Assembly: GCA_023380585.1 (NCBI GenBank)
Contig: JAMCRN010000009.1
Coordinates: 2,524-66,523, forward strand
From: Candidatus Parvarchaeota archaeon
Lineage (GTDB): Archaea > Nanobdellota > Nanobdellia > Parvarchaeales > Parvarchaeaceae
Reading direction: 5' to 3'
DNA length: 64,000 nucleotides
Shown: positions 4,415-50,588 of the stretch, piece by piece
Numbering within the stretch: position 1 is the stretch's first letter
How the letters are laid out: the number at the start of each line of letters is the position of its first letter
The notes under the pieces: model-generated
Told to the model about the DNA's origin: nothing
The model's database searches: none
The model's input: only the letters and a program-made list of their open reading frames with translations
Translations under genes and position numbers: made by a program

Positions 4415-7400
4415 ATGAAGCGTTTTCTTTTGGGGAAGAGATCCCAATCAGCATTGGAGTATCTAACAACGTACGCCTGGGAGTTTGCTCTTATAATTTT
4501 AGTGGTTGTTGCGCTGTTTTATACAGGCGTGTTCAATACCTCCGGATTCTTCTCATCCGCACCCGTTTTTTCTGGATTCAGCGGTATTTCGATACAGAAT
4601 GTAGTAGCAAATTCCACTGTAGTTGAACTGTCAATGGTCAATGATGAGAACTTTGGAGTAAACATTACAAATATGGCGCTCGATTACAACGGTCAGAATT
4701 TCACTGTGTTCTCATGCACAGAGTATTCACTATATCCTGGTGAGAACACAATCTGCGCTTTTGTGGGATCTTTCCCCCAAAGACGTATATCTACACACTT
4801 GTACATAGACTACAGTACAAACTCAATAAACACTCTATCAGCAGGGAGTATACTATTCTCTCCATCTAACTCCGCTGTCAAGTTCCCATTCATAAAAACA
4901 GAATTAAACTTCACAATAACAAATCTACAGAGCACAGCGACGTCGGCGCCATTCCAGCAAGAGATAACTTTTGATCCGCAGTTCCTGCAGCAGTACGAAT
5001 CCAGCAACCTCGGCAATATACGATTCTATGAAGGAGCACAAGAGTTATACAGCTGGTGCCAAAGCGGATGCTCCTCCTCTTCAGATAATGTAACATTCTG
5101 GGTAAATTTACCGAACGGTGTAGGCGCAGATTCTTCCCTGAATTTAACAATAGTATTCTTACCTTTGGCAAATTACGATGGTGTCTACGCTGGAGAAGCG
5201 CCACAGCTCTCCCCGATATACGCCGAGTATGATAATGGGGCTGATGTGTTCCCGGAATTGTATAATAATTTCAAAGGGACTACATTGAATGGCTTTAGTG
5301 GCGGGACCTATAAAATCGATAATGGTCTTACTATATATGACAATGGCAATTTAGTTTCTACCTCAGCAATACCAGACGGAAACACTGCTGTAACCATTTT
5401 TGGTCTGTTTGACTCTGGCGGCGCAGTATACTCCGGCTCGGGTAGTACATATGCATTGGGTTATGATTTTTACGACGGCAGCGGAGGAACAGGGCTTAGT
5501 TATGCTTTGAACTCAAATTCCGGTGGCAATGTAAATTGCGAAAATTTCGACACAAATAAATCTTGGGGTGCGTCAGCCGTTCCTATAAATACAACAGGTT
5601 TTTATTCTCTTTATTCGATTTATAAATCAGGTAATTTAACGACAGAATTTTATTTCAACAATATTTTCGACTGCGCAGGGAGTTGGCTTTCTGGTAATCC
5701 TTTTTACAACTCATTCTCTTCAACGAGCGACTTTCAATTTTATACGCAGACAACCTCGAATGCCTATGAATATTGGCAGTATATATTTGCGAGAACATTG
5801 CCCCCCAACGGTGTTATGCCGACTGTCTCCGGGCCGCTAGTCACCAGAGTGCCTATAACTTTTACTAACTACCAAGGCACTTCTACGCCGTCTCCTTTCC
5901 AACAAATGGTAACCGTGAACTCCTCACATTTCTCTAAATATGAAGCTAATAATCTAGATAACGTTTTTTTCTTTTATTCTAATGGGACTATCGTGCCTTC
6001 ATGGCTTGAATCAGGCGATGTAGCTACGTTTAATGGCGAGACCACCTCTTATAATTTAGGCGGAACTTCGTCGTATATACAAGGGTCGTCCCCCTACGTT
6101 TTTCCTTTATCTGGCTTTGCTTGGGTCTATGATAAGAACTATGGTACTAGCAATTTTCAGGTAATATTTGAATTTGATGGTAACACTCAAGGGAGTAGTC
6201 AGTTCGAGCTAGCGCTCAGTACAAGCGGGCAATTGAGATTCTGGAACGGGTCAGAGAACTTTTTATCCTCCTTAACCGTACCATTGGATTCATGGAGCCT
6301 AGTTGGGTTTTCTGTGGATTCCAACAATATAAACCTATACGTAAACGGACAAATAGAGTCTTTCCCCACCTCTAACGCCCCTCAGGATCCAGGAGACGGA
6401 TATTGGATAATAGGATGGCAGAACTGCTGCGGTGATAGAGACTTTAACGGAAGCATATCAAACGTCCAGCTATACTCATCAGCACTGTCCAAAACCCAAG
6501 CTGATCAATTATATTTAAGCGGACCATCGGGGTCTCCTCTACAGAATGGAGAATTGGCGGGTTGGTGGCCTCTTCTTGGTAATGCGAATGACATGAGCGG
6601 GAACAACAATAATGGTGTAGTGAACAACGTTTCGTTTACTTTCACCAGTTCGGCAAGCACAAAAACCACATATTGGTTAAAGATAAGTTCTATTCCTGCA
6701 GACTCAACAAAAACAGTGTATATAGGATTCGCGCCTCCCTATATAAATTCCTTCAACAGACTTACTGGAGAAGCGCCACAGCTCTCCCCGATATACGCTG
6801 AATATGATAATGGAGCAAAACTGTTTAATGACTATTGGAATTTTAATGGAACGTCTATGCCCTCTGCTTTTAGCGTAGTGAACCCGAATAGCAAAAGTAC
6901 AATAAGTGTAGACAATGGATTATATATCGCACCATACCCCAATAATTACGCAGGGATAGAGTATAACAGTGTCTTTAACCCCGATTCTGTAGTAGAATAT
7001 TATGAGGTAAGCTCTTATTCAGTACCAAATTGCTGGGCCGTAGGAGAGGCAGTCGGCTCATTTAACAGCTCTGGCGGCTATCTTTATGTTTATGCGTATC
7101 CGCCTGGCAGCGTGTACGGCCAGCTCGGATGGAGTGCCGGTAATATCGTTTTAAGTGATGGGGTAATATATAACCAAATTTTTAGAAATATTACGCGCAG
7201 CAATGTCATAATAGGAGAGGCTTGGCCGTCGGAAAATTTACAGGTGTATTATGCGGATGGACAGGACAGACAGGTGTCGTCAACAAATGAGCTTCTAATA
7301 AAAAGTGGAATAAGCTTCAGCTTTGGGGGGTATTACTGTACAAACGGGTCCTCTATATATACACGTTGGATCAGGGTAAGAGCATATCCCCCAAACGGCA

Positions 7401-7435
7401 TTATGCCAGCCGCCAGCTTTGGAGGAGTGATATAA
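4415..7435 (+). CDS. large (1006 aa) class III signal peptide (type-IV-pilin-like) surface adhesin with internally duplicated ConA/LamG-like modules
   Basis: The N-terminus MKRFLLGKRSQSALEYLTTYAWEFALIILVVVALF is an archaeal prepilin-type signal. GEAPQLSPIYAEYDNGA occurs twice, about 525 aa apart. PPNG(V/I)MP motifs mark the module ends. GWWPLLGNANDMSGNNNNG is a LamG_3-type motif. The protein is rich in Asn/Ser/Thr sequons. Confidence 0.75.
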   Translation: MKRFLLGKRSQSALEYLTTYAWEFALIILVVVALFYTGVFNTSGFFSSAPVFSGFSGISIQNVVANSTVVELSMVNDENFGVNITNMALDYNGQNFTVFSCTEYSLYPGENTICAFVGSFPQRRISTHLYIDYSTNSINTLSAGSILFSPSNSAVKFPFIKTELNFTITNLQSTATSAPFQQEITFDPQFLQQYESSNLGNIRFYEGAQELYSWCQSGCSSSSDNVTFWVNLPNGVGADSSLNLTIVFLPLANYDGVYAGEAPQLSPIYAEYDNGADVFPELYNNFKGTTLNGFSGGTYKIDNGLTIYDNGNLVSTSAIPDGNTAVTIFGLFDSGGAVYSGSGSTYALGYDFYDGSGGTGLSYALNSNSGGNVNCENFDTNKSWGASAVPINTTGFYSLYSIYKSGNLTTEFYFNNIFDCAGSWLSGNPFYNSFSSTSDFQFYTQTTSNAYEYWQYIFARTLPPNGVMPTVSGPLVTRVPITFTNYQGTSTPSPFQQMVTVNSSHFSKYEANNLDNVFFFYSNGTIVPSWLESGDVATFNGETTSYNLGGTSSYIQGSSPYVFPLSGFAWVYDKNYGTSNFQVIFEFDGNTQGSSQFELALSTSGQLRFWNGSENFLSSLTVPLDSWSLVGFSVDSNNINLYVNGQIESFPTSNAPQDPGDGYWIIGWQNCCGDRDFNGSISNVQLYSSALSKTQADQLYLSGPSGSPLQNGELAGWWPLLGNANDMSGNNNNGVVNNVSFTFTSSASTKTTYWLKISSIPADSTKTVYIGFAPPYINSFNRLTGEAPQLSPIYAEYDNGAKLFNDYWNFNGTSMPSAFSVVNPNSKSTISVDNGLYIAPYPNNYAGIEYNSVFNPDSVVEYYEVSSYSVPNCWAVGEAVGSFNSSGGYLYVYAYPPGSVYGQLGWSAGNIVLSDGVIYNQIFRNITRSNVIIGEAWPSENLQVYYADGQDRQVSSTNELLIKSGISFSFGGYYCTNGSSIYTRWIRVRAYPPNGIMPAASFGGVI

Positions 7436-12237: not shown

Positions 12238-13755
12238 CTAAGTCTCCAAAACTTCAGGCTCTTCGTCGGCGGCTACCACTCCCATTAACTTTTCTTTATT
12301 GATGTAATAATTACTCGTTATAAGTCCTATTTTATTTACAGAAGCCACTTTTTTATGGGACATCCATTTGAGGATTGACACTTTCTCGCTTATATCTTTT
12401 TTCATCTCTTCCGCGGTCATACCGGAATAAAGCTCCAGCTTGTTAGCGATCTTCTGTGATATGTTTATAGTCCTCTCTATCGTGTCTGTCCTTGGCTTCC
12501 ACTCGAATAGATTATTTGTTTTTATCTCCGTCTTTCCAACTACAGAACGTTCGGCGACTTCAGCAAGTTCAAGTACACGACGCAGCCCACTTCTTCTCTG
12601 CCTGAACGCTGTTATTACCAAGTCTAGGGTGGACACTTCTATCTCAGGAAGATTTATAGGCTCAGAAAGAAGCCTTTTAATAACCTGTTGGGCTGTTTCA
12701 GCATGAAGAGTAGCATAAACAGAGTGTCCAGTCATAAGCGCTTCAAAAAGAGTTTCCGCGTCTTCTTTCCTTCTTATCTCACCGACGACTAGTCTGTCGG
12801 GCCTCATCCTAAGCGAATTCAGAAGAAGATCAAGCATGGTTATCTCTCCTTTGCCTTCGGAATTAGGCTGCCTTGTAACCATCGGCACCCAGTGCAGGAA
12901 TCTAGGCAGAACAAGCTCATTTGTATCCTCTATCGTTATTATTCTCTGGTTCGGAGGTATGAAAGGTAAGAACACGTTCAGAAGGCTAGTTTTACCAGAT
13001 GCTGTACCTCCTGTTACAATCATAGACAGCTCGTACTGCATCGCTTGCCATACAAACGCGGTCAATTCTGGGGTTATAGTGCCCTTAGTGATAAAATCGA
13101 CGATTGTCCATGGTTCTTCTCTAAATTTTCTTATGTCGAAAGTGTTGCCGTGTACAGATATAGGATATAAGGTCGCGTTTACACGGTCGCCGTTGGGTAG
13201 CCTTGCGTCAAGCAAAGGAGATAGAGTGGTTATCTGCCTACCCACCTTCCTTGCGACTTGCTGTGCGAAGTTTTCTATCATCTTCTCTGTTTCTATCCTT
13301 ATAGTGGTCTCAAGCCAGCCATATTTTATGTGGTATACCATAACGTTGGTTTTGGAGTCGTTTACTACTATCTCTTCCAGATTCTTGTCATTGTCCAATA
13401 TCTCTAAGACCCCAAGTCCGAACATCTCATGGAGAAGCGTGGCGGATAACTCTATGTAAACTCTCTCCTCCATACCCGGAAGTATCGTCTTCAGCTTATC
13501 AGACGTAAGATCCAGAAAATCCGTCCTCAAAGTAGGGGAGTAGCTCTCAGACAGGGTCTGTATTTTAAGAGGGTACTCCTTTATCAATTCTGTCCTTATC
13601 TCTGTCAGCACCGCTCTGATTCCAGGGTCTATAGCCGGCACTTTTATATTATACACAGATGTAAATTTACCAGGCACTCTCTCGATGCTTACCCTAGCTA
13701 ATACACCGTCAGAAATAACGTCATAGCTTTCAAGCACTTCGACGCGCTGCTCCAT
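12238..13755 (-). CDS. archaeal type IV pilus/archaellum assembly ATPase (FlaI/VirB11/GspE family)
   Basis: Walker A IVTGGTASGKTS, a Walker B/Asp box RIITIEDTNEL, a His box ATLHAE, and an N-terminal FlaI-like domain. Confidence 0.85.
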   Translation of the reverse strand: MEQRVEVLESYDVISDGVLARVSIERVPGKFTSVYNIKVPAIDPGIRAVLTEIRTELIKEYPLKIQTLSESYSPTLRTDFLDLTSDKLKTILPGMEERVYIELSATLLHEMFGLGVLEILDNDKNLEEIVVNDSKTNVMVYHIKYGWLETTIRIETEKMIENFAQQVARKVGRQITTLSPLLDARLPNGDRVNATLYPISVHGNTFDIRKFREEPWTIVDFITKGTITPELTAFVWQAMQYELSMIVTGGTASGKTSLLNVFLPFIPPNQRIITIEDTNELVLPRFLHWVPMVTRQPNSEGKGEITMLDLLLNSLRMRPDRLVVGEIRRKEDAETLFEALMTGHSVYATLHAETAQQVIKRLLSEPINLPEIEVSTLDLVITAFRQRRSGLRRVLELAEVAERSVVGKTEIKTNNLFEWKPRTDTIERTINISQKIANKLELYSGMTAEEMKKDISEKVSILKWMSHKKVASVNKIGLITSNYYINKEKLMGVVAADEEPEVLET

Positions 13756-13785
13756 TTCAATATTTAGAAATTTTACATTATATAC

Positions 13786-13893
13786 TTTAAAGGGGCAACG
13801 GATGCTCTACCTGGTTGAGCTACGAGCGCATGCGCTCGAGGGGATTTGAACCCCCAACCAACCGGTTAAAAGCTTCATCTGCCCCCTTTAAAG
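13786..13893 (-). ncRNA. tRNA-like element with permuted T-arm/acceptor and acceptor/D-arm halves inside a long hairpin (candidate circularly permuted tRNA or tRNA remnant)
   Basis: The minus strand reads ..GGGGGTTCAAATCCCCT-CGAGCGC-A-T-GCGCTCG-TA-GCTCAACCAGGTAGAGC.. The T-arm and 3' acceptor strand come immediately before the 5' acceptor strand and D-arm. The whole element is flanked by TTTAAAGGGGGC / GCCCCTTTAAA inverted repeats. Confidence 0.35.
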
Positions 13894-14045
13894 TAATATT
13901 AGTCAGATGCATTATAGTTATTTATGTATTTTAGTGCATGAAAACGATATCTGCGTTTAAAGTGATAATTATGTGTTTTTTGGTTTCTGAAGGTAAATCA
14001 TCCATCCTACATACTGTTTATAAGTTTTGAAAAACTCCTTATGAC

Positions 14046-15290
14046 ATGATAAATTCGCTGTCTGTGAGCTTTTTTCTCTTAGGAGCAGCTGCTGTCTTGT
14101 TTATAGGGTTCGTAGGAAGGGCCATGGCTAGGAAGACGTCCATCCCGCATATAGTATGGCTTATGCTCTTTGGGATAGCCATAGGCCCGGTATTCGGCCT
14201 CTTAAAAAGGCCAGTTTTGCTGGAATTTCTTCCTTTTGTTACCAGCATAGTCATAATAATAGTACTTTTCAACGCAGGACTCAGCATAAACATAAAAAAG
14301 ATAATAAAAGGCGTATCCAAAAGCGTAGTGCTGGCGATAACAAACCTAACGCTTGCTGCAGCGGCTACCGTAACCATATTATATTTTCTTGGGTACCCTC
14401 TTACCACGTCTGTGCTTATTGGATTGATAGTCGGAGGCCTTAGCGCTTCGATAATACCCGGATTTGGGAGTCTCTCTGCTTACAGCGACAAGATAAAGAC
14501 GATAATAAACCTAGAATCCATAATAGCAGAGCCATTGGCGATAATATTTGTCCTAGTTTTTGTAAGCGCGTTCTTGCTACATGATTATTCCCCAGGATTT
14601 ATAGCGAGTAAGCTGATATCAGAATTTTCTATAGGGATAGTCATAGGAGCGGTATTCGGGCTCGGGTGGGTACCAGTCATGAGCCATTTTCAAAGGTATA
14701 AATATGAGTATTCCTATGCCGGCTCTCTTGCGATAGTATTCTTTCTATACATAATAGTACAGGGTATGCAAGGAAGCGGCCCAATGTCAGCATTGGTATT
14801 CGGAATGTTCCTCGCAAATGGGGAAGACATATTCAAAGCGCTAAAATATAGGCACGGGGTGTCGTTTACATTAAGTAAGGAGTCTAGGTCGTTTAACGAC
14901 CTAGTGGCGTTCCTTACTGCTTCTTTCTTCTTTGTTTACTTCGGCGCTCTCATATTCCTGCAAGATTATTATGCATTTGCTATAGGCGTGGCTATAGCCG
15001 TGTCCCTGCTCATAGCCAGGCAGATAGGTACAAGACTTGCCCTTTTGAAGTCCCAATTCGTATCGAAAGATAAAGCCGTGATCTCATCCATGCTAACACG
15101 TGGGACAGGCGCAGCCGTCGCGGCAGCTATCCCTGTGGGTTTAGGAATAGCTGGAAGTGGAGACTTTATAGACATAGCAGCAAGCACGATAATAACGACT
15201 ATAATCCTAACAGTAATAATGGGCAAGGTCTTCAAACAGAATCAGCCCCAAAAAACAGTTAAACAAACTCTTAGAAAAAGTAGCGTATGA
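14046..15290 (+). CDS. cation/proton antiporter-like polytopic membrane transporter
   Basis: About 12-13 TM helices. Its topology resembles the CPA/NhaP families. It is paralogous to the next gene. Confidence 0.55.
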   Translation: MINSLSVSFFLLGAAAVLFIGFVGRAMARKTSIPHIVWLMLFGIAIGPVFGLLKRPVLLEFLPFVTSIVIIIVLFNAGLSINIKKIIKGVSKSVVLAITNLTLAAAATVTILYFLGYPLTTSVLIGLIVGGLSASIIPGFGSLSAYSDKIKTIINLESIIAEPLAIIFVLVFVSAFLLHDYSPGFIASKLISEFSIGIVIGAVFGLGWVPVMSHFQRYKYEYSYAGSLAIVFFLYIIVQGMQGSGPMSALVFGMFLANGEDIFKALKYRHGVSFTLSKESRSFNDLVAFLTASFFFVYFGALIFLQDYYAFAIGVAIAVSLLIARQIGTRLALLKSQFVSKDKAVISSMLTRGTGAAVAAAIPVGLGIAGSGDFIDIAASTIITTIILTVIMGKVFKQNQPQKTVKQTLRKSSV

Positions 15291-16486
15291 CAATAGGTGC
15301 TGAATCGATATTTGTTTTTGCAGGGTTCATAATACTGGTCGGGTTTATAGGCGAGCAAATATTCAGAAAAACCAATGTGCCTTCTTTCCTTTTTCTAATA
15401 TTGATAGGGGTCGTAATAGGACCTGTTCTAAGACTTATAACAAGGAATGTTCTAACGCCGATATTGGGTACCGTGGCAGAGTTTACGCTTATAATGGTCC
15501 TTTTTTACGGCGGTATGGAGATAAATTTCAAAGCTCTTTTGGACAGCAGCGGACGCGCAATAGCCCAAGTGTTCTTTTATGTTTCCATAGCGATATCGCT
15601 AATAACTATCTTTGTAAATGTATTTCTTGGGTGGTCGCTGATACAGTCGCTAATATTCGGGGCGATTGTGGGCGGAGAAACTACCACTATAGTGGTCTTT
15701 AAATTAGCGGACTACATAGGTATAAAGGAAAAGACCGCAGTTTTTCTCAAACTTGAGGCTGCCCTCAACTCTATAGTGCTTGTTGTCCTTTTCGTTACTT
15801 TTGTAGGGCTTTATCAGACCGGCAGCGCGAATATCTACAGCGCAATGTTAGGGCTATCTTCGAATTTTTCTATAGGAGTCGTTGTAGGACTGATACTATC
15901 TATAATCTGGCTTTCGATATTAAACAAGGTAAAAAAGTACAAATATACATATGTCCTTACTCTCGGCTTCCTTCTTCTGACATACTCCTTTACTCAAATC
16001 GTTAACGGAAGCGGCATACTAGCTGCATTGATATTCGGGGTAGTCGTGGGTAACAATAAATTCATAGCTTCTCTGTTAAAGAGGAGGACGAATCTTAAAA
16101 ATCTGGAAAAGCAACTGCATACACTCCAAGGAGAGATAACTTTCTTATTGAGCACTTTTTTCTTTGTGTTCTTAGGCATAGTATTCAGCATCTCGTTGTC
16201 TAGTCTGGAATTCGGAGCGATTGTAGGGGCGATAATATTGCTGATACTGCTCTTCTCAAGGTACCTCGCAACTTCTATATCAACAATAAGATCAGAAATT
16301 TCTGCAGATAAAAAGTATATAATAATGTTATTGCCGCAGGGTCTTACTCCGGCAACTCTAGCCATCCTGGCCCTGAGTTACGGCATACCCCTCGCCAGCA
16401 CCTTTTTAGTCCTTGTGACATATGTTATAATATTCACAAATGTAGTAGCTACAGTCGGCGTGTTCGCAGCTAGAAGAGGAGCATAA
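15287..16486 (+). CDS. cation/proton antiporter-like membrane transporter (tandem paralog)
   Basis: Same architecture as 14046..15290, with a 4-nt overlap. Confidence 0.55.
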   Translation: MTIGAESIFVFAGFIILVGFIGEQIFRKTNVPSFLFLILIGVVIGPVLRLITRNVLTPILGTVAEFTLIMVLFYGGMEINFKALLDSSGRAIAQVFFYVSIAISLITIFVNVFLGWSLIQSLIFGAIVGGETTTIVVFKLADYIGIKEKTAVFLKLEAALNSIVLVVLFVTFVGLYQTGSANIYSAMLGLSSNFSIGVVVGLILSIIWLSILNKVKKYKYTYVLTLGFLLLTYSFTQIVNGSGILAALIFGVVVGNNKFIASLLKRRTNLKNLEKQLHTLQGEITFLLSTFFFVFLGIVFSISLSSLEFGAIVGAIILLILLFSRYLATSISTIRSEISADKKYIIMLLPQGLTPATLAILALSYGIPLASTFLVLVTYVIIFTNVVATVGVFAARRGA

Positions 16487-30646: not shown

Positions 30647-31930
30647 ATGAAAGAAGAAAACAGGGATACTATAAAATTATGCGGGTGGGTCGAAAATCTC
30701 CGTGATTTGGGCAAGATACTTTTCATAAAGGTCAGAGACGACAGCGGATATTACCAGGTAACAATAATAAGAGAAGAAAGCAGCAAGATATTCGAGGAAG
30801 CCAAAAAAATAAAACCGGAATCGGTTATATCATTAAACGGCATAAAAAGGGCGAATAAGAAGGTAATAAATGGCTATGAGATAATCCCTCAGCAGATAGA
30901 GCTGATGTCAGAAGCAGAGCAGCCCGTGCCTCTTAATCTGAATGAGAACGTTAAATCCTCCCTCGACAAGGAGATAGATTATAGATTTCTCAGCCTTAGA
31001 AAGCCAAGTGTAGCATCAATATTCAAGATACAAAGCACAGTAAGTAACGCTATAGTAGAGTTTTTTCAAAAGAATGGCTTCTACCAGATACACTCTTCCA
31101 AAATAGTTTCACAGGCGACGGAAGGAGGGGCAAACGTTTTTCCAGTCATATACTTCGATAGGACCGCTTATTTAGCGCAGTCACCACAATTTTACAAACA
31201 AATGATGATGTCCGCAGGGCTAGAGAAGGTTTTCGAGATAGGGCCCGTGTTCAGGGCAGAACCGCACCATACCTCCAGGCACCTCACAGAATATACAAGT
31301 GTCGATATTGAGATGAGTTTTATCAAGTCATATGAAGACGTAATGGACATAATGGAGGATATGATGATATACCTATTCAAGAAGGTAAGAAAGACAAACG
31401 TTCGAGAGCTTAAATCAACTGGCGCTAGTCTCAAGGTTCCGCGGAAGCCATTTCCAAGGATAAATATGGCAGATGCCGCAAAAATATTGGAAAAATACGG
31501 GAATAGACCAAAAGATGACGGAGACATAGATCCAGAAGGAGAGCGCATCCTCGGAGAGTATGTTAAGGAGCGGTATGGAGCCGAAATTTTCTTCCTTACA
31601 GAATTCCCATGGACTATCGCCCAGTTTTACCACATGAGGAGCAAGGAAAATCCAAACATAACGTATCGCGCTGATATGATATACAAAGGGCTTGAGATAA
31701 CAACACTTGCACAAAGGGAGCACAGGTATGATGTGCTTGTAAAGCAGTTAAAGGAAAAAGGACTTGACCAAGAAAAATTCCAGTTCTACTTGGATTTCTT
31801 CAGATACGGTGTCCCTCCCCATGGAGGGTCCGGCACTGGTTTAGAAAGAATAGTAAAGCAGATGTTGAACCTGGAAAATGTGGCGGAGGCGACACTATTA
31901 CCAAGAACACCGGACAGACTGACTCCTTAA
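30647..31930 (+). CDS. aspS: aspartate--tRNA ligase (archaeal type, class IIb)
   Basis: An N-terminal OB fold, motif 2 GPVFRAE, QSPQFYKQ, and motif 3 GGSGTGLERI. Confidence 0.85.
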   Translation: MKEENRDTIKLCGWVENLRDLGKILFIKVRDDSGYYQVTIIREESSKIFEEAKKIKPESVISLNGIKRANKKVINGYEIIPQQIELMSEAEQPVPLNLNENVKSSLDKEIDYRFLSLRKPSVASIFKIQSTVSNAIVEFFQKNGFYQIHSSKIVSQATEGGANVFPVIYFDRTAYLAQSPQFYKQMMMSAGLEKVFEIGPVFRAEPHHTSRHLTEYTSVDIEMSFIKSYEDVMDIMEDMMIYLFKKVRKTNVRELKSTGASLKVPRKPFPRINMADAAKILEKYGNRPKDDGDIDPEGERILGEYVKERYGAEIFFLTEFPWTIAQFYHMRSKENPNITYRADMIYKGLEITTLAQREHRYDVLVKQLKEKGLDQEKFQFYLDFFRYGVPPHGGSGTGLERIVKQMLNLENVAEATLLPRTPDRLTP

Positions 31931-48501: not shown

Positions 48502-49380
48502 ATGATATACAAAGAACTAGGAAAAACCAAGGAGAAAGTATCTGCTATAGGTCTTGGCACATGGCAACTTGGCGAGATTACTGAAAGCAAGGTAGACGCC
48601 ATAAGGGCGGGACTTGACAACGGGATAGACTTCATAGACACCGCTGAAATCTACGGTACGGAGGACCTTGTCGGCGAGGCAATAAAAAACAGGAAAAAGC
48701 CTTTTATCGCTACTAAGGTCTGGCCATCTAATTTCAAGTATGATTCTGTTATAAAAGCGTGCGAATCCAGCCTTAAGAGGCTTGGTGTACCTCAAATAGA
48801 CCTTTACCAGCTGCACTGGCCGAATAAATCCATCCCTATAAAAGAAACCATGTCCGCCATGGAGAGATTAGTGGAGGAGGGGAAGATAAGGTACATCGGC
48901 GTAAGCAATTTTAGACCAGAAGAGGTGGATGAGGCCAATAAAGCGCTGAAAAAAAGCGAAATAGTTTCGGACCAAGTAGAATACAGTCTGATAGTAAGAG
49001 GCGCGGAAAAGAAGATTCTCCCATACTGCAAGAAAAAAGGTTTAAGCCTCATAGCATACAGTCCTTTAGGTCATAAGAAGTTAGTATCGAATAAGCATCC
49101 GGAACTTACGGAGACTCTCAAAGAGATAGGAGAAAAATACGGAAGAAGTCCGGTGCAGGTAGCTTTAAATTGGCTCATATCAATGGACAATGTAATAGCT
49201 ATACCAAAGGCTAGCAGCAAAGAACACGTTTTGGAAGATGCGGGAGCAGCAGATTTTGTGATGACAAAGGGAGACATCGCAAAATTAAATGAAGTGTCAG
49301 CAAAGTTCCAGTCAAAATCGCTTTACCAGATGGTCGGTCCTTTAGTTTCTGTCTATTTAAAGTTTAAAAGAATATTTTGA
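48502..49380 (+). CDS. aldo/keto reductase
   Basis: IDTAEIYG and LYQLHWP, the AKR motifs. Confidence 0.85.
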   Translation: MIYKELGKTKEKVSAIGLGTWQLGEITESKVDAIRAGLDNGIDFIDTAEIYGTEDLVGEAIKNRKKPFIATKVWPSNFKYDSVIKACESSLKRLGVPQIDLYQLHWPNKSIPIKETMSAMERLVEEGKIRYIGVSNFRPEEVDEANKALKKSEIVSDQVEYSLIVRGAEKKILPYCKKKGLSLIAYSPLGHKKLVSNKHPELTETLKEIGEKYGRSPVQVALNWLISMDNVIAIPKASSKEHVLEDAGAADFVMTKGDIAKLNEVSAKFQSKSLYQMVGPLVSVYLKFKRIF

Positions 49381-49460
49381 AATTCTGTCATCTTTTTAAT
49401 CAGCTAAAATTTACTTTTATTTTTTATAATTTTATATATCTAACAATAAATCATAAAATC

Positions 49461-50588
49461 ATGAGTAGGTCACAGTCAGCCCTGGAGTACATGATGACCT
49501 ATGGCTGGGCTATCCTGATCATTGTCATCGTAGCCGCAGTCTTATACTCCTTAGGTATCTTCTCCCCATCCTCAAGCATATCAGCAACAGTAACGGGCTT
49601 CTCCAATCTAGGCTCAGTAGCAGCACAATGCACATCCAACGGAGTATTAAGATTAAGTCTTGGAGACTCGACAGGTTACCCTATAAACGTCACCAGTATA
49701 ACAGCAAAAGACTCCTCTACAAGCCAGACATCCACCTTCAAACCAAACTCCACAGTAGATCCTAATCCTATAATAGATGTGGGAGGCAGTTACATCTTCT
49801 CGGTTCCAAATGTATGTCCTCCGGCTGGCTCACATTACTCGATATCGACGACAGTGAACTACACCGAACCCGGACAGCCACTTCCAGGTCCGTATTTTTC
49901 TGTAGGGACTATAACAGGGATTACAATTCCTATAGATTTGCCTGAATATGTAGCTACTTTTAGCAGCAGCTCATCTAGAATTAATACCTCGGCAATTCCG
50001 TTTAGAAACCAGTCTTTTTCGATAACATTTTGGGTTTATCTAAAAACATACAATTCATCATGCCCATACGGTTGTGAATCAAAAGCTTTTACTCTTTCGT
50101 CCTTTCAAGGATGCACTGGTTCTTCTTGTCAGATTTTGGGCTTTGATACAAGAGGTAATAACTTCCATTATTTTGTATGGGACGCAGATCTTTATGAGCC
50201 GTCTACTGCCGGTAAATGGTATTTTATAAGCTGGACATTTAGTAACCCATCTAAGACACAAACAGGTTATATAGACGGAGCTTCGCCGGTTGGAAACGGT
50301 GTATATATAAGTAACCCCACCTACTTGTTCATAGGAGACGGGCCAGTTTTAGGAGGAGGATCTTTAGACGGGTTCATAACAAATTTTCAGATATACAATT
50401 CAACTTTAACACAGTCACAGATAGCTTCCTTGTACCAAGAAGGGCTGGATTATACACCAGTACCTAGCACAGGTTTGGCTCAGTGGTGGCCTCTTAATGG
50501 GACCATAAAGAACTATGCGCAAAATATAATCCCAGCAAACAATGGTGTAGTTTTCACAAGTAATTATCCTTCGACAGGTCTGCCTTAA
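49461..50588 (+). CDS. class III signal peptide (pilin-like) protein with LamG/ConA-like C-terminal module
   Basis: MSRSQSALEYMMTYGWAILIIVIVAAVLY, then a ~150-aa module about 93% nt-identical to the 60250 gene, then a divergent C-terminus ending LAQWWPLNG...NNGVVFTSNYP. The ORF track begins at 49377, but the prepilin-type start is the internal Met at 49461. Confidence 0.7.
   Translation: MSRSQSALEYMMTYGWAILIIVIVAAVLYSLGIFSPSSSISATVTGFSNLGSVAAQCTSNGVLRLSLGDSTGYPINVTSITAKDSSTSQTSTFKPNSTVDPNPIIDVGGSYIFSVPNVCPPAGSHYSISTTVNYTEPGQPLPGPYFSVGTITGITIPIDLPEYVATFSSSSSRINTSAIPFRNQSFSITFWVYLKTYNSSCPYGCESKAFTLSSFQGCTGSSCQILGFDTRGNNFHYFVWDADLYEPSTAGKWYFISWTFSNPSKTQTGYIDGASPVGNGVYISNPTYLFIGDGPVLGGGSLDGFITNFQIYNSTLTQSQIASLYQEGLDYTPVPSTGLAQWWPLNGTIKNYAQNIIPANNGVVFTSNYPSTGLP

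What the first reader, a model, noticed from the sequence alone, without database searches (positions are those of the whole stretch)
13786..13893. tRNA-derived element with T-arm upstream of D-arm inside a 108-nt hairpin: candidate circularly permuted tRNA or tRNA remnant
On the minus strand a canonical T-arm (GGGGG-TTCAAAT-CCCCT) and 3' acceptor strand (CGAGCGC-A) come immediately before the complementary 5' acceptor strand (GCGCTCG) and a canonical D-arm (GCTC-AACCAGGTA-GAGC). This is the order expected for a permuted tRNA gene, known so far only in Cyanidioschyzon merolae and a few Crenarchaeota. The outer ends, TTTAAAGGGGGCAGATG and CATCCGTTGCCCCTTTAAA, pair for 13 bp or more. That could form the processing (BHB-like) helix that circularises such precursors. 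I could not place an anticodon stem cleanly. The alternatives are a decayed tRNA left at an integration site, or a palindromic regulatory element in the divergent promoter between the pilus ATPase and the transporter genes.
Basis: seen in the sequence. Interest (0 to 1): 0.7.

Follow-up and report, generated by a model that had tools for sequence, protein, structure and literature searches.

The report
Circularly permuted tRNA-Lys gene, Parvarchaeota
This 108-base element is very probably a working lysine tRNA gene whose back half is encoded in front of its front half, so the RNA must be cut and re-joined to function; this layout was previously reported in archaea for only two genes of one species, and sister lineages here keep the normal gene at the same spot.

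Summary
On the minus strand, 13893-13786 encodes leader, tRNA positions 31-73, a 1-nt linker, positions 1-30, then trailer. Leader and trailer form a strict bulge-helix-bulge (BHB) motif: a 9-bp outer helix, 3-nt bulges, a 4-bp central helix GAUG:CAUC and a 4-bp inner helix. Cutting after the second bulge base on each strand and joining gives a 74-nt tRNA-Lys(UUU).

The host is a Parvarchaeales (DPANN) archaeon. Four related lineages carry a conventional tRNA-Lys(UUU) at the same position upstream of the same ATPase operon. The joined product aligns to them end to end.

The permuted gene also occurs in nine further contigs or MAGs. These are Ca. Acidifodinimicrobium and a relative, and the gene sits in a different genomic context there. 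Compensatory changes occur in the acceptor stem and in the leader-trailer helix.

YrlA-like RNA, decayed remnant, regulatory palindrome and assembly artefact are all disfavoured. Expression and the circular intermediate are inferred, not shown.

In the literature searched, archaeal permuted tRNAs were reported only from Thermofilum pendens, joined at 59/60 with CCA encoded. This case is new by lineage and by junction.

The parts
13910..13917 (-). TATA-like octamer CTATAATG, 31-38 nt upstream of the central BHB helix; candidate archaeal promoter of the permuted gene (inferred)
   Evidence: All three permuted variants have an A/T-rich TATA-like element at the same distance: WIN CTATAATG, L169/L193 TTAATATA, L196 CATATATAG. 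A start about 25 nt downstream would fall at the 5' edge of the outer helix. No transcript data.
13880..13888 (-). Leader strand of the outer BHB helix h' (AAGGGGGCA); pairs with 13789-13797
   Evidence: 9 contiguous pairs. Two positions of this helix change on both sides among variants: G:C / A.C / A:U and A:U / G:C.
13876..13879 (-). Leader strand of the central 4-bp BHB helix (GAUG); pairs with CAUC at 13801-13804
   Evidence: Invariant in all 4 distinct precursors. The geometry was found by the strict BHB scan.
13873..13875 (-). 3-nt bulge AA|G. Predicted cleavage after the second base; the G (13873) becomes tRNA position 31
   Evidence: The cleavage rule (after the 2nd bulge nucleotide) comes from established BHB knowledge.
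13831..13873 (-). 3' half of tRNA-Lys(UUU), positions 31-73 (43 nt): anticodon loop CUUUUAA (13866-13872, anticodon 13868-13870), 3' strand of the anticodon stem, variable loop, T-arm (13839-13855), 3' acceptor strand (13832-13838), discriminator A (13831)
   Evidence: Identical over 43 nt in L169/L193 and 42/43 in L196. Positions 37-68 of the joined product (32 nt) are identical to the conventional gene of L203.
13830..13830 (-). 1-nt intervening sequence (U; A in the other variants) between discriminator A73 and G1. No CCA is encoded
13799..13829 (-). 5' half of tRNA-Lys(UUU), positions 1-30 (31 nt, as the D-loop has 17a): 5' acceptor strand (13823-13829), U8 A9, D-arm (13804-13820), A26, positions 27-30 UCCG
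   Evidence: It aligns colinearly with conventional genes across the 30/31 junction.
13798..13800 (-). 3-nt bulge CG|U. Predicted cleavage after G30 (13799)
13801..13804 (-). Exon-side strand of the central helix (CAUC = positions 25-28). It overlaps the last D-stem base, so the BHB conformer and the full cloverleaf are alternative folds
   Evidence: the BHB-enforced fold is -44.8 kcal/mol versus an MFE of -48.7.
13789..13797 (-). Trailer strand of the outer BHB helix (UGCCCCUUU)
13778..13791 (-). TTTAAAGTATATAA, conserved promoter-like element of the downstream ATPase gene. It overlaps the end of the tRNA trailer helix
   Evidence: The same motif precedes the ATPase start codon in L121-L124. 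Inferred to be a promoter.
12238..13755 (-). FlaI/TadA-family secretion ATPase, first gene of the conserved block tRNA-Lys / ATPase / 2x T2SSF / tRNA-Val(CAC). It serves as the synteny anchor and is not part of the RNA

Best explanation
The element is a functional, circularly permuted gene for tRNA-Lys(UUU) in a Parvarchaeales (DPANN) archaeon. One transcript carries leader, tRNA positions 31-73, one linker nucleotide, tRNA positions 1-30, then trailer.

Shown from sequence and comparison: the leader and trailer pair into a strict bulge-helix-bulge motif. Cutting after the second base of each 3-nt bulge and joining G30 to G31 gives a canonical 74-nt tRNA-Lys(UUU) that is colinear with conventional orthologs.

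Inferred from established archaeal tRNA processing: the splicing endonuclease cuts both bulges and an RtcB-type ligase joins the ends. This gives either a 75-nt circle or, if the acceptor ends are trimmed first, two annealed halves that are then joined. RNase P and a 3' nuclease such as tRNase Z remove the single linker nucleotide. The CCA-adding enzyme finishes the 3' end, because CCA is not encoded.

In the window's organism the permuted gene occupies the locus where relatives have the conventional gene, so it is probably that organism's tRNA for AAA codons.
For: (1) In-silico cut and join gives a 74-nt sequence that ARAGORN calls tRNA-Lys(ttt) over its full length. It has U8, A14, G18G19, A21, U33, A37, G53, U54U55C56, A58, C61 and an A15/U48 Levitt pair (read from the sequence).
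(2) Strict hBHBh' geometry: 9-bp outer helix, 3-nt bulges, 4-bp central helix, 4-bp inner helix. Among 98 acceptor-complementary candidates (bacterial YrlA-like elements and tandem tRNA genes), only the window and its homologs L169/L182 gave a tRNA-length full-span product.
(3) Conventional orthologs lie upstream of the same ATPase / T2SSF / T2SSF / tRNA-Val block and on the same strand: L121-124 and L203-204 with a 13-nt intron at 37/38, L200-201 and L202 without an intron. The joined product aligns with them with no indel at 30/31 and differs from L203 at 5 of 74 positions.
(4) Cloverleaf covariation over 3 permuted and 4 conventional sequences: 95% of cells paired versus 26-54% when partners are slid. 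Four pairs change on both sides, including 28:42, which bridges the two halves. The covariation score is 0.184 and 0 of 500 shuffles reach it.
(5) The permuted gene is present in nine other contigs or MAGs as three sequence variants, in a different genomic context (between an LPG-synthase-like gene and an AsnC-like gene, near cdc6). It is 95% identical where flanking genes are 65-73% identical.
(6) Compensatory series occur in the leader-trailer helix (G:C / A.C / A:U and A:U / G:C) and at acceptor pair 5:68 (U:A / C.A / C:G). The BHB core is invariant.
(7) AAA is the commoner Lys codon (295 vs 218), and no conventional tRNA-Lys is present in the 64-kb window.
(8) ARMAN-4/5 relatives have an alpha4 endonuclease that needs strict BHB motifs (PMC3239211), which this motif satisfies.
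Against: There are no expression data, so transcript, cleavage, circle and mature tRNA are all inferred. Only 64 kb of the genome was seen, so a conventional tRNA-Lys(UUU) elsewhere cannot be excluded. L204 (conventional) and L199 (permuted) come from the same metagenome assembly, so the two forms might coexist in some genomes, although composition argues they are different organisms. The BHB conformer is 3.9 kcal/mol above the MFE and requires opening the G10:C25 pair. Pair 27:43 is a U.U mismatch, and L169 has a C5.A68 mismatch. With only 4 distinct precursors, the shuffle control for the precursor structure is weak (69 of 500). A 1-nt linker is an awkward substrate for RNase P and tRNase Z, though T. 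pendens tRNA-Tyr has the same linker length (PMC3218864). The endonuclease, ligase and RNase P of this particular genome were not examined.
Confidence: 0.85

Rival explanations
1. It is a rearranged, non-functional tRNA-Lys pseudogene or remnant left by recombination or integration at the tRNA locus. Translation would rely on another tRNA-Lys(UUU) gene elsewhere in the genome.
For: Relatives have an intact conventional gene at this locus, so a rearrangement certainly happened here. Synteny breaks exactly at the tRNA. The segment downstream of the conventional gene is variable in L121 vs L123. The rest of the genome was not seen.
Against: The halves partition the tRNA exactly at 30/31 with no duplicated att-like core, no gap and no disabling change. 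The gene is kept at 95% identity in another genus where flanking genes are 65-73% identical and the context differs. Compensatory changes keep the acceptor stem and the leader-trailer helix paired. The BHB core is invariant. A pseudogene would not maintain a processing helix.
Confidence: 0.07
2. It is a tRNA-like non-coding RNA of the YrlA / Y-RNA kind. Such RNAs have a T-arm, a closed acceptor-like hairpin and a D-arm on a long stem, act as a protein-binding scaffold, and never become a decoding tRNA.
For: Rfam's best hit on the locus is YrlA: 44.3 bits, E = 1e-8. Bacterial YrlA genes share the same arm order and overall topology and were picked up in numbers by my first pattern scan.
Against: The score is below YrlA's gathering score of 69, whereas true YrlA loci score 74-76. 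The Y-RNA stem columns are flagged as non-pairs in the alignment. The host is archaeal. None of the 31 window ORFs scanned (all ORFs of 300 aa or more, plus one of 206 aa and one of 280 aa) has a TROVE/Ro60 domain. The element carries a true CUUUUAA anticodon loop and, after the BHB join, a complete anticodon stem. It is homologous to conventional tRNA-Lys genes. YrlA-like controls do not yield a tRNA through a strict BHB.
Confidence: 0.04
3. It is a DNA-level palindrome acting in the divergent promoter region, as an operator or terminator hairpin between the ATPase operon and the antiporter gene.
For: It lies in a 290-bp intergenic region between divergent genes. The trailer helix overlaps a conserved TTTAAAGTATATAA promoter-like motif of the ATPase gene.
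Against: The two arms are not reverse complements of each other: T-arm versus D-arm. Only the tRNA helices pair. The same 95-nt block is conserved in Acidifodinimicrobium, where neither the ATPase nor the antiporter is adjacent. Relatives with the same ATPase promoter motif lack the palindrome.
Confidence: 0.02
4. It is an assembly artefact, such as an inverted chimeric junction.
For: The centre, CGAGCGCATGCGCTCG, is a perfect 16-nt palindrome, as seen at some chimeric joins.
Against: The same arrangement occurs in nine independent contigs from different studies, as three sequence variants. The flanks continue into normal genes on both sides.
Confidence: 0.01

Closest known systems
[quoted passage not shown]
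   Same: Archaeal. [quoted passage not shown]
   Different: The junction is at 59/60 in the T-loop there and at 30/31 in the anticodon stem here. CCA is encoded there and not here. Those genes also carry a 37/38 intron and this one has none. That host is a crenarchaeon with many non-canonical introns. This host is a DPANN lineage whose relatives have an alpha4 endonuclease restricted to strict BHB motifs.
Algal permuted tRNA genes (Cyanidioschyzon merolae, Ostreococcus/Micromonas, Bigelowiella nucleomorph; Soma 2014 review, PMC3978253)
   Same: Same gene architecture and same proposed pathway: BHB cleavage, ligation to a circular intermediate, end trimming, CCA addition. CCA is not encoded.
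   Different: Those are eukaryotic, with junction types 20/21, 37/38, 50/51 and 59/60. The circular intermediate was shown experimentally there and only inferred here. Intervening sequences in the algal genes are 5-85 nt (PMC3218864).
Split (trans-spliced) tRNA-Lys(CUU) of Staphylothermus spp. and Nanoarchaeum equitans (PMC3218864, Table 1)
   Same: Same amino-acid family and same breakpoint, 30/31. The mature half sizes are identical in Staphylothermus (31 + 43 nt). Halves are joined through a BHB-type helix formed by flanking sequences.
   Different: There the halves are separate genes at distant loci with their own promoters. Here they are 1 nt apart in inverted order on one transcript. The anticodon is CUU there and UUU here. 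No sequence comparison of the flanks was made.
Conventional tRNA-Lys(UUU) of related Parvarchaeales (L121, L200, L202, L203)
   Same: Orthologous position upstream of the same ATPase operon. 64-69 of 74 positions are identical to the joined product, and the unusual unpaired 27:43 is shared.
   Different: These are colinear genes, with or without a 13-nt intron at 37/38, called normally by Rfam (58 bits).
YrlA, bacterial Y-RNA-like RNA (Rfam RF02553)
   Same: Order of T-arm, acceptor-like hairpin and D-arm on a closing stem. It is the best Rfam hit.
   Different: See the membership test: below gathering score, no Ro60, archaeal host, and a real anticodon arm after joining.

Membership tests
Circularly permuted tRNA gene (BHB-dependent) | [quoted passage not shown] | tested here: met
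   Positions 31-73, 1 nt, then positions 1-30 on the minus strand.
Circularly permuted tRNA gene (BHB-dependent) | The halves partition one tRNA without gap or overlap, and the joined product is a canonical cloverleaf with the universal nucleotides | tested here: met
   ARAGORN calls tRNA-Lys(ttt) over the full 74 nt. The cloverleaf evaluates to -30.6 kcal/mol. The product is colinear with four conventional orthologs.
Circularly permuted tRNA gene (BHB-dependent) | Leader and trailer form a bulge-helix-bulge motif whose cleavage sites coincide with the exon ends | tested here: met
   Strict hBHBh' (3-4-3 with 9-bp and 4-bp flanking helices) in exact register. Two compensatory changes occur in the outer helix.
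Circularly permuted tRNA gene (BHB-dependent) | A single upstream promoter serves both halves | tested here: inconclusive
   A TATA-like element sits at the same distance in all three variants. No transcript mapping was possible.
Circularly permuted tRNA gene (BHB-dependent) | A circular RNA intermediate and a mature joined tRNA are detectable | not testable with these tools
   This needs RNA-seq or RT-PCR.
Circularly permuted tRNA gene (BHB-dependent) | The host encodes a splicing endonuclease, RNA ligase, RNase P, a 3' nuclease and a CCA-adding enzyme | not tested
   None of these was found among the 31 window ORFs scanned. About 28 shorter ORFs of 170-299 aa, the size range of an alpha4 endonuclease subunit, were not scanned. 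An alpha4 endonuclease is reported for ARMAN-4/5 relatives (PMC3239211).
Archaeal permuted tRNA of the T. pendens type (type IV) | Junction at 59/60 in the T-loop | tested here: not met
   The T-arm is intact within the 3' half, and the junction is at 30/31.
Archaeal permuted tRNA of the T. pendens type (type IV) | 3'-terminal CCA is encoded | tested here: not met
   A73 is followed by U (A in the other variants) and then G1.
Split (trans-spliced) tRNA | The halves are separate genes with separate promoters | tested here: not met
   The halves are 1 nt apart.
YrlA (RF02553) | Reaches the Rfam gathering score of 69 bits | tested here: not met
   44.3 bits. L169/L182/L193/L196 are not called. 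True YrlA loci score 74-76 bits.
YrlA (RF02553) | Ro60/Rsr (TROVE) gene nearby | tested here: not met
   No TROVE hit in any of the 31 window ORFs scanned, which include every ORF of 300 aa or more. The rest of the genome was not seen.
YrlA (RF02553) | Y-RNA stem paired as in the model | tested here: not met
   The cmscan alignment marks the 7-bp stem columns as non-standard pairs and leaves 18 model positions unaligned.

The most novel reading that the evidence does not exclude
The permuted gene arose once (identical BHB core in all copies) from an L203-like conventional tRNA-Lys(UUU). It then spread between genus-level Parvarchaeales lineages. In the window's organism it replaced the conventional gene at that gene's own locus and became the sole decoder of AAA. 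Its breakpoint, 30/31 with 31 + 43-nt halves, is the same as in the split tRNA-Lys(CUU) genes of Nanoarchaeum and Staphylothermus. That would point to a recurrent, mechanistically determined disruption site in tRNA-Lys, for example a mobile-element target or a lost 30/31 intron, linking split and permuted tRNA genes. A head-to-tail join with only 1 nt between A73 and G1 would then hint at an origin from a circularised tRNA or a precise tandem copy, rather than an ordinary duplication.
Probability: 0.2. Interest if true: 0.75.

Novelty: new member of a known kind. Interest (0 to 1): 0.6.

Why it matters
In the literature I could search, archaeal permuted tRNA genes rest on two genes in one crenarchaeon, and their processing in archaea has never been followed experimentally.

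This case adds a second, unrelated archaeal lineage (DPANN, Parvarchaeales). It adds a junction position (30/31, anticodon stem) that is outside the four listed junction types. It also lacks encoded CCA.

It comes with a "before and after" series, which is unusual. Sister lineages keep the conventional gene at the same locus, and three diverged permuted variants show compensatory changes in the processing helix. That makes the origin and maintenance of permuted genes testable by comparison.

Relatives of this host have an alpha4 endonuclease thought to accept only strict BHB motifs. The strict motif here fits the proposed co-evolution of endonuclease type and tRNA gene disruption.

There is a practical consequence. 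ARAGORN and Rfam do not call this gene (tRNAscan-SE could not be run here), so such genomes may appear to lack tRNA-Lys(UUU) in annotation and in completeness estimates.

Tried and rejected
(1) My first collection scan (genome contigs) used a pattern without the anticodon loop. It did supply useful YrlA controls.
(2) ATPase-anchored loci were at first judged to lack any tRNA-Lys, because my regex required TAGCTCA or TGGCTCA within 45 nt of a T-loop. A BLAST of the joined product later found the conventional genes.
(3) Cdc6-anchored loci of the window's nearer relatives (L185-L192) contain no tRNA-Lys.
(4) ARAGORN reported a tRNA-Val(gac) with an intron at position 30 in L192/L202, which would have suggested 30/31 introns in this lineage. 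By hand it reads as tRNA-Cys(GCA) with a 37/38 intron, so I did not use it.
(5) The aaRS at 30647-31930 was checked as a possible LysRS. It is a non-discriminating AspRS.
(6) The supplementary tRNA tables of the ARMAN paper are not held, so whether tRNA-Lys(UUU) was found in ARMAN-4/5 is unknown.
(7) The viral-contig scan for the leader/3'-exon junction gave 0 hits.
(8) Source names did not settle whether L203-type genomes are Acidifodinimicrobium. Composition suggests they are not.
(9) Other 'no-tRNA' hits from the metagenome scan (L136/158/163, L140/177/179, L145, L152, L154, L175, L181) have YrlA-like topology. None yields a tRNA-length product through a strict BHB, so they are not permuted tRNA genes of this kind.

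Full report
OBSERVATION. The minus strand of 13893-13786 reads: 5'-CUUUA AAGGGGGCA GAUG AA|G CUUUUAA CCGGU UGGUU GGGGG UUCAAAU CCCCU CGAGCGC A - U - GCGCUCG UA GCUC AACCAGGUA GAGC A UCCG|U UGCCCCUUU AAA-3'. The region folds far better than shuffled sequence (z = -6.8). The T-arm/acceptor 25-mer is unique in the window even with 3 mismatches allowed. ARAGORN and Rfam at gathering score find only tRNA-Val(CAC) and tRNA-Pro(UGG) in the 64 kb.

THE MISSING ANTICODON STEM AND THE BHB. If the outer pairing is read as a leader-trailer interaction, it is not a plain hairpin. It consists of:
- a 9-bp outer helix, AAGGGGGCA with UGCCCCUUU;
- a 3-nt bulge on each strand, AAG and CGU;
- a 4-bp central helix, GAUG with CAUC;
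- a 4-bp inner helix: G24:C32, A23:U33, G22.U34, A21:U35.
This is the strict hBHBh' form of the archaeal splicing motif. Applying the established rule of cleavage after the second bulge base, and joining the ends, gives a 74-nt sequence. ARAGORN calls it tRNA-Lys(UUU) across its full length. The anticodon stem is UCCG|G with CCGGU, the loop is CUUUUAA, and the universal tRNA nucleotides are in place. The junction is 30/31. The 5' half is 31 nt because the D-loop has position 17a, and the 3' half is 43 nt. The linker between A73 and G1 is a single U, and CCA is not encoded. The BHB-enforced fold of the 108-nt precursor is -44.8 kcal/mol against an unconstrained MFE of -48.7, so that conformer is accessible. 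It does require opening G10:C25.

IS THE BHB DISCRIMINATING? Rfam's best hit on the unspliced locus is YrlA at 44.3 bits, below the gathering score of 69. YrlA is a bacterial Y-RNA-like family whose tRNA-like module has the same arm order. My first, badly designed collection scan returned many bacterial elements of that architecture, and two of them are called YrlA above threshold. I used them as controls. A scanner for strict BHB geometry was run on 98 acceptor-complementary candidates. Loose BHB-like geometries are common by chance. Only the window element and its homologs L169/L182 yield a tRNA-length product that ARAGORN calls over its full span. None of the 31 window ORFs scanned (all of 300 aa or more, plus two shorter ones) has a TROVE/Ro60 domain. 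The Y-RNA stem columns of the cmscan alignment are flagged as non-pairs.

ORGANISM. The neighbouring proteins are archaeal. They include Orc1/Cdc6, deoxyhypusine synthase and a non-discriminating AspRS. Their closest relatives are Candidatus Parvarchaeota, the ARMAN-4/5 group, at 65-75% identity. Cdc6 and the antiporter have 100%-identical entries annotated 'Candidatus Parvarchaeota archaeon'. ARMAN-4/5 are reported to have an alpha4 splicing endonuclease, which accepts only strict BHB motifs (PMC3239211). The motif here is strict.

CONVENTIONAL ORTHOLOGS AT THE SAME LOCUS. In the window the gene order on the minus strand is: permuted tRNA-Lys, FlaI/TadA-type ATPase, two T2SSF genes, tRNA-Val(CAC). 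Four related lineages have the same block with a conventional, colinear tRNA-Lys(UUU) upstream of the ATPase on the same strand:
- L121-L124 have a 13-nt intron at 37/38. Rfam calls this gene a tRNA at 58 bits, whereas ARAGORN miscalls it 'tRNA-Stop'.
- L203-L204 also have a 13-nt intron at 37/38.
- L200-L201 have no intron.
- L202 has no intron.
The in-silico joined product aligns to all of them with no indel at 30/31. It differs from L203 at 5 of 74 positions and from the others at 9-10. ARMAN-5-type loci (L125-L128) have no tRNA-Lys at this locus.

MORE PERMUTED COPIES AND COVARIATION. A specific metagenome scan found two homologs, L169 and L182, after ordinary tandem tRNA pairs were removed. 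They are 95% identical over 95 nt, while flanking genes are 65-73% identical and the context is different. Using the nearby cdc6 gene as an anchor, seven more loci from independent MAGs and assemblies were recovered. This lineage is Ca. Acidifodinimicrobium mancum plus a relative with 83% Cdc6 identity. All seven carry the permuted gene between an LPG-synthase-like gene and an AsnC-like gene. Three sequence variants exist.

Among the variants the BHB core never changes, but paired positions do:
- Outer-helix position 4: G:C in the window, A.C in L169, A:U in L196.
- Outer-helix position 8: A:U in the window, G:C in the other two.
- Acceptor pair 5:68: U:A in the window, C.A in L169, C:G in L196.

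On the precursor alignment, 94% of cells pair versus 45-56% when partners are slid, and three pairs change on both sides. The shuffle control is weak with four sequences (69 of 500). On the seven-sequence cloverleaf alignment, 95% of cells pair versus 26-54% when slid, four pairs change on both sides, and 0 of 500 shuffles reach the covariation score. One of those four pairs, 28:42, bridges the upstream 3' half and the downstream 5' half. All three variants have a TATA-like element 31-41 nt upstream of the central helix. That would place transcription start at the edge of the outer helix. This is inference.

MECHANISM.
Shown by sequence and comparison: the gene order, the strict BHB in register, the canonical joined product, homology to conventional tRNA-Lys, and selection on both the tRNA helices and the processing helix.
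Inferred from the established pathway for BHB substrates and permuted tRNAs (PMC3978253): the endonuclease cuts both bulges and an RtcB-type ligase joins G30 to G31. This gives a 75-nt circle or, if the acceptor ends are cut first, two annealed halves joined as in a split tRNA. RNase P and a 3' nuclease remove the single linker nucleotide, and CCA is added.
AAA is the commoner lysine codon (295 vs 218), so a UUU-anticodon tRNA is needed. The conventional gene is absent from its usual locus in this organism.

WHAT REMAINS OPEN. No expression data exist. The rest of the genome was not seen. L204 (conventional) and L199 (permuted) come from one metagenome assembly. Their composition differs (tetranucleotide r = 0.74; GC 0.44 vs 0.40), which argues for different organisms, but coexistence of both forms in some genomes is not excluded. 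The permuted genes cluster with the L203-type conventional gene rather than with the gene of the window's nearest ATPase relatives. Acidifodinimicrobium Cdc6 is only about 64-66% identical to the window's. So either the permuted gene is old or it has moved between lineages, and I cannot tell which. How a 30/31 junction arose is unexplained, because the known relatives have introns only at 37/38. The usual model, tandem duplication of an intron-containing gene, would predict a 37/38 junction.

COMPARISON WITH WHAT IS KNOWN. As of the 2014 review, 34 permuted tRNA genes were known, with junctions at 20/21, 37/38, 50/51 and 59/60. The only archaeal cases are iMet and Tyr of Thermofilum pendens, joined at 59/60, with CCA encoded and linkers of 7 and 1 nt (PMC3218864, PMC3978253). 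Later papers in the searchable library still cite only that work for archaea. The Parvarchaeales genome papers do not mention such genes. The 30/31 breakpoint and the 31 + 43-nt halves are the same as in the split tRNA-Lys(CUU) of Staphylothermus, and N. equitans shares the 30/31 site (PMC3218864, Table 1). This is a lead that I could not test.

VERDICT. This is a genuine and very probably functional circularly permuted tRNA-Lys(UUU) gene. It is a new member of a known kind, in a new lineage and with a new junction position, and it has unusually good comparative support. Interest is moderate to high for tRNA and archaeal specialists. My literature search covers open-access papers only, so an earlier report elsewhere cannot be excluded.

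Noticed in passing
L136:9324-9392, L163:285-352, L175:9791-9861, L181:424-498 (also L140, L177, L179): These elements have T-arm, short closed acceptor-like hairpin and D-arm in that order, preceded by a complete CUUUUAA stem-loop. They sit inside dense tRNA-gene arrays on low-GC metagenome contigs (L175 also has a tmRNA). Neither Rfam at gathering score nor ARAGORN calls them, and none yields a tRNA-length product through a strict BHB. They may be an undescribed tRNA-like or Y-RNA-like class in phage-like or bacterial tRNA clusters.
   Followed up: partly
L006:79-208, L154:795-924 and about 50 other loci: The simple pattern GTTCRAATC-N19-31-TAGCTCANNNNGGTAGAGC retrieves bacterial YrlA-type genes in many phyla (Streptomyces, Caulobacter, Comamonas, Pyrinomonadaceae, Hymenobacter and others). 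Only the two Comamonas-type loci among those I scored reached the Rfam YrlA gathering score.
   Followed up: partly
L121:2331-3000 versus L123:933-3000: The segment between the conventional tRNA-Lys and the ATPase gene is 0.67 kb in L121 and 2.1 kb in L123, where it carries two extra genes. In L121 it is bounded by inverted 13-mers, CAGTACTTCCGAA just after the tRNA and TTCGGAAGTACTG just before the ATPase promoter. L123 shares the ATPase-proximal copy, but its tRNA-proximal copy differs. This looks like an insertion or inversion hotspot at the tRNA 3' end.
   Followed up: no
L121:2244-2330, L203:3280-3368; L192:1769-1876 = L202:1335-1442: ARAGORN mislabels intron-containing tRNA-Lys(UUU) genes as 'tRNA-Stop(tta)'. 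It also labels a probable tRNA-Cys(GCA) with a 37/38 intron, next to a CysRS gene, as 'tRNA-Val(gac)' with an intron at position 30.
   Followed up: partly
alignment A3, tRNA positions 27:43: The top pair of the anticodon stem is unpaired (U.U, C.A or U.C) in 6 of 7 Parvarchaeales tRNA-Lys(UUU) sequences, permuted and conventional alike. This is a lineage signature.
   Followed up: no
window 13778-13791 and 13880-13893: The motif CTTTAAAG occurs at both ends of the element. The downstream copy is part of TTTAAAGTATATAA, which is conserved upstream of the ATPase gene in relatives and is probably its TATA box. The reverse complement of the upstream copy (TTTAAAGTAATATTAG on the plus strand) resembles it and faces the antiporter gene 150 nt away. 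The extra A/U pairs of the window's outer helix may therefore be borrowed from two divergent promoters.
   Followed up: no
window 14046-16486: Two tandem, overlapping cation/proton antiporter paralogs (414 and 399 aa) lie immediately upstream of the element, in divergent orientation. The window also has large LamG-domain proteins at 4415-7435 and 49377-50588.
   Followed up: no
L130, L141, L143, L146, L150, L153, L155, L167, L171, L174, L178, L183, L184: Many metagenome contigs carry tRNA-Lys(UUU) directly followed by tRNA-Lys(CUU), with spacers of only about 4-19 nt. Such tight Lys-Lys tandems are the kind of arrangement from which a permuted gene could arise by deletion of the outer parts.
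   Followed up: no
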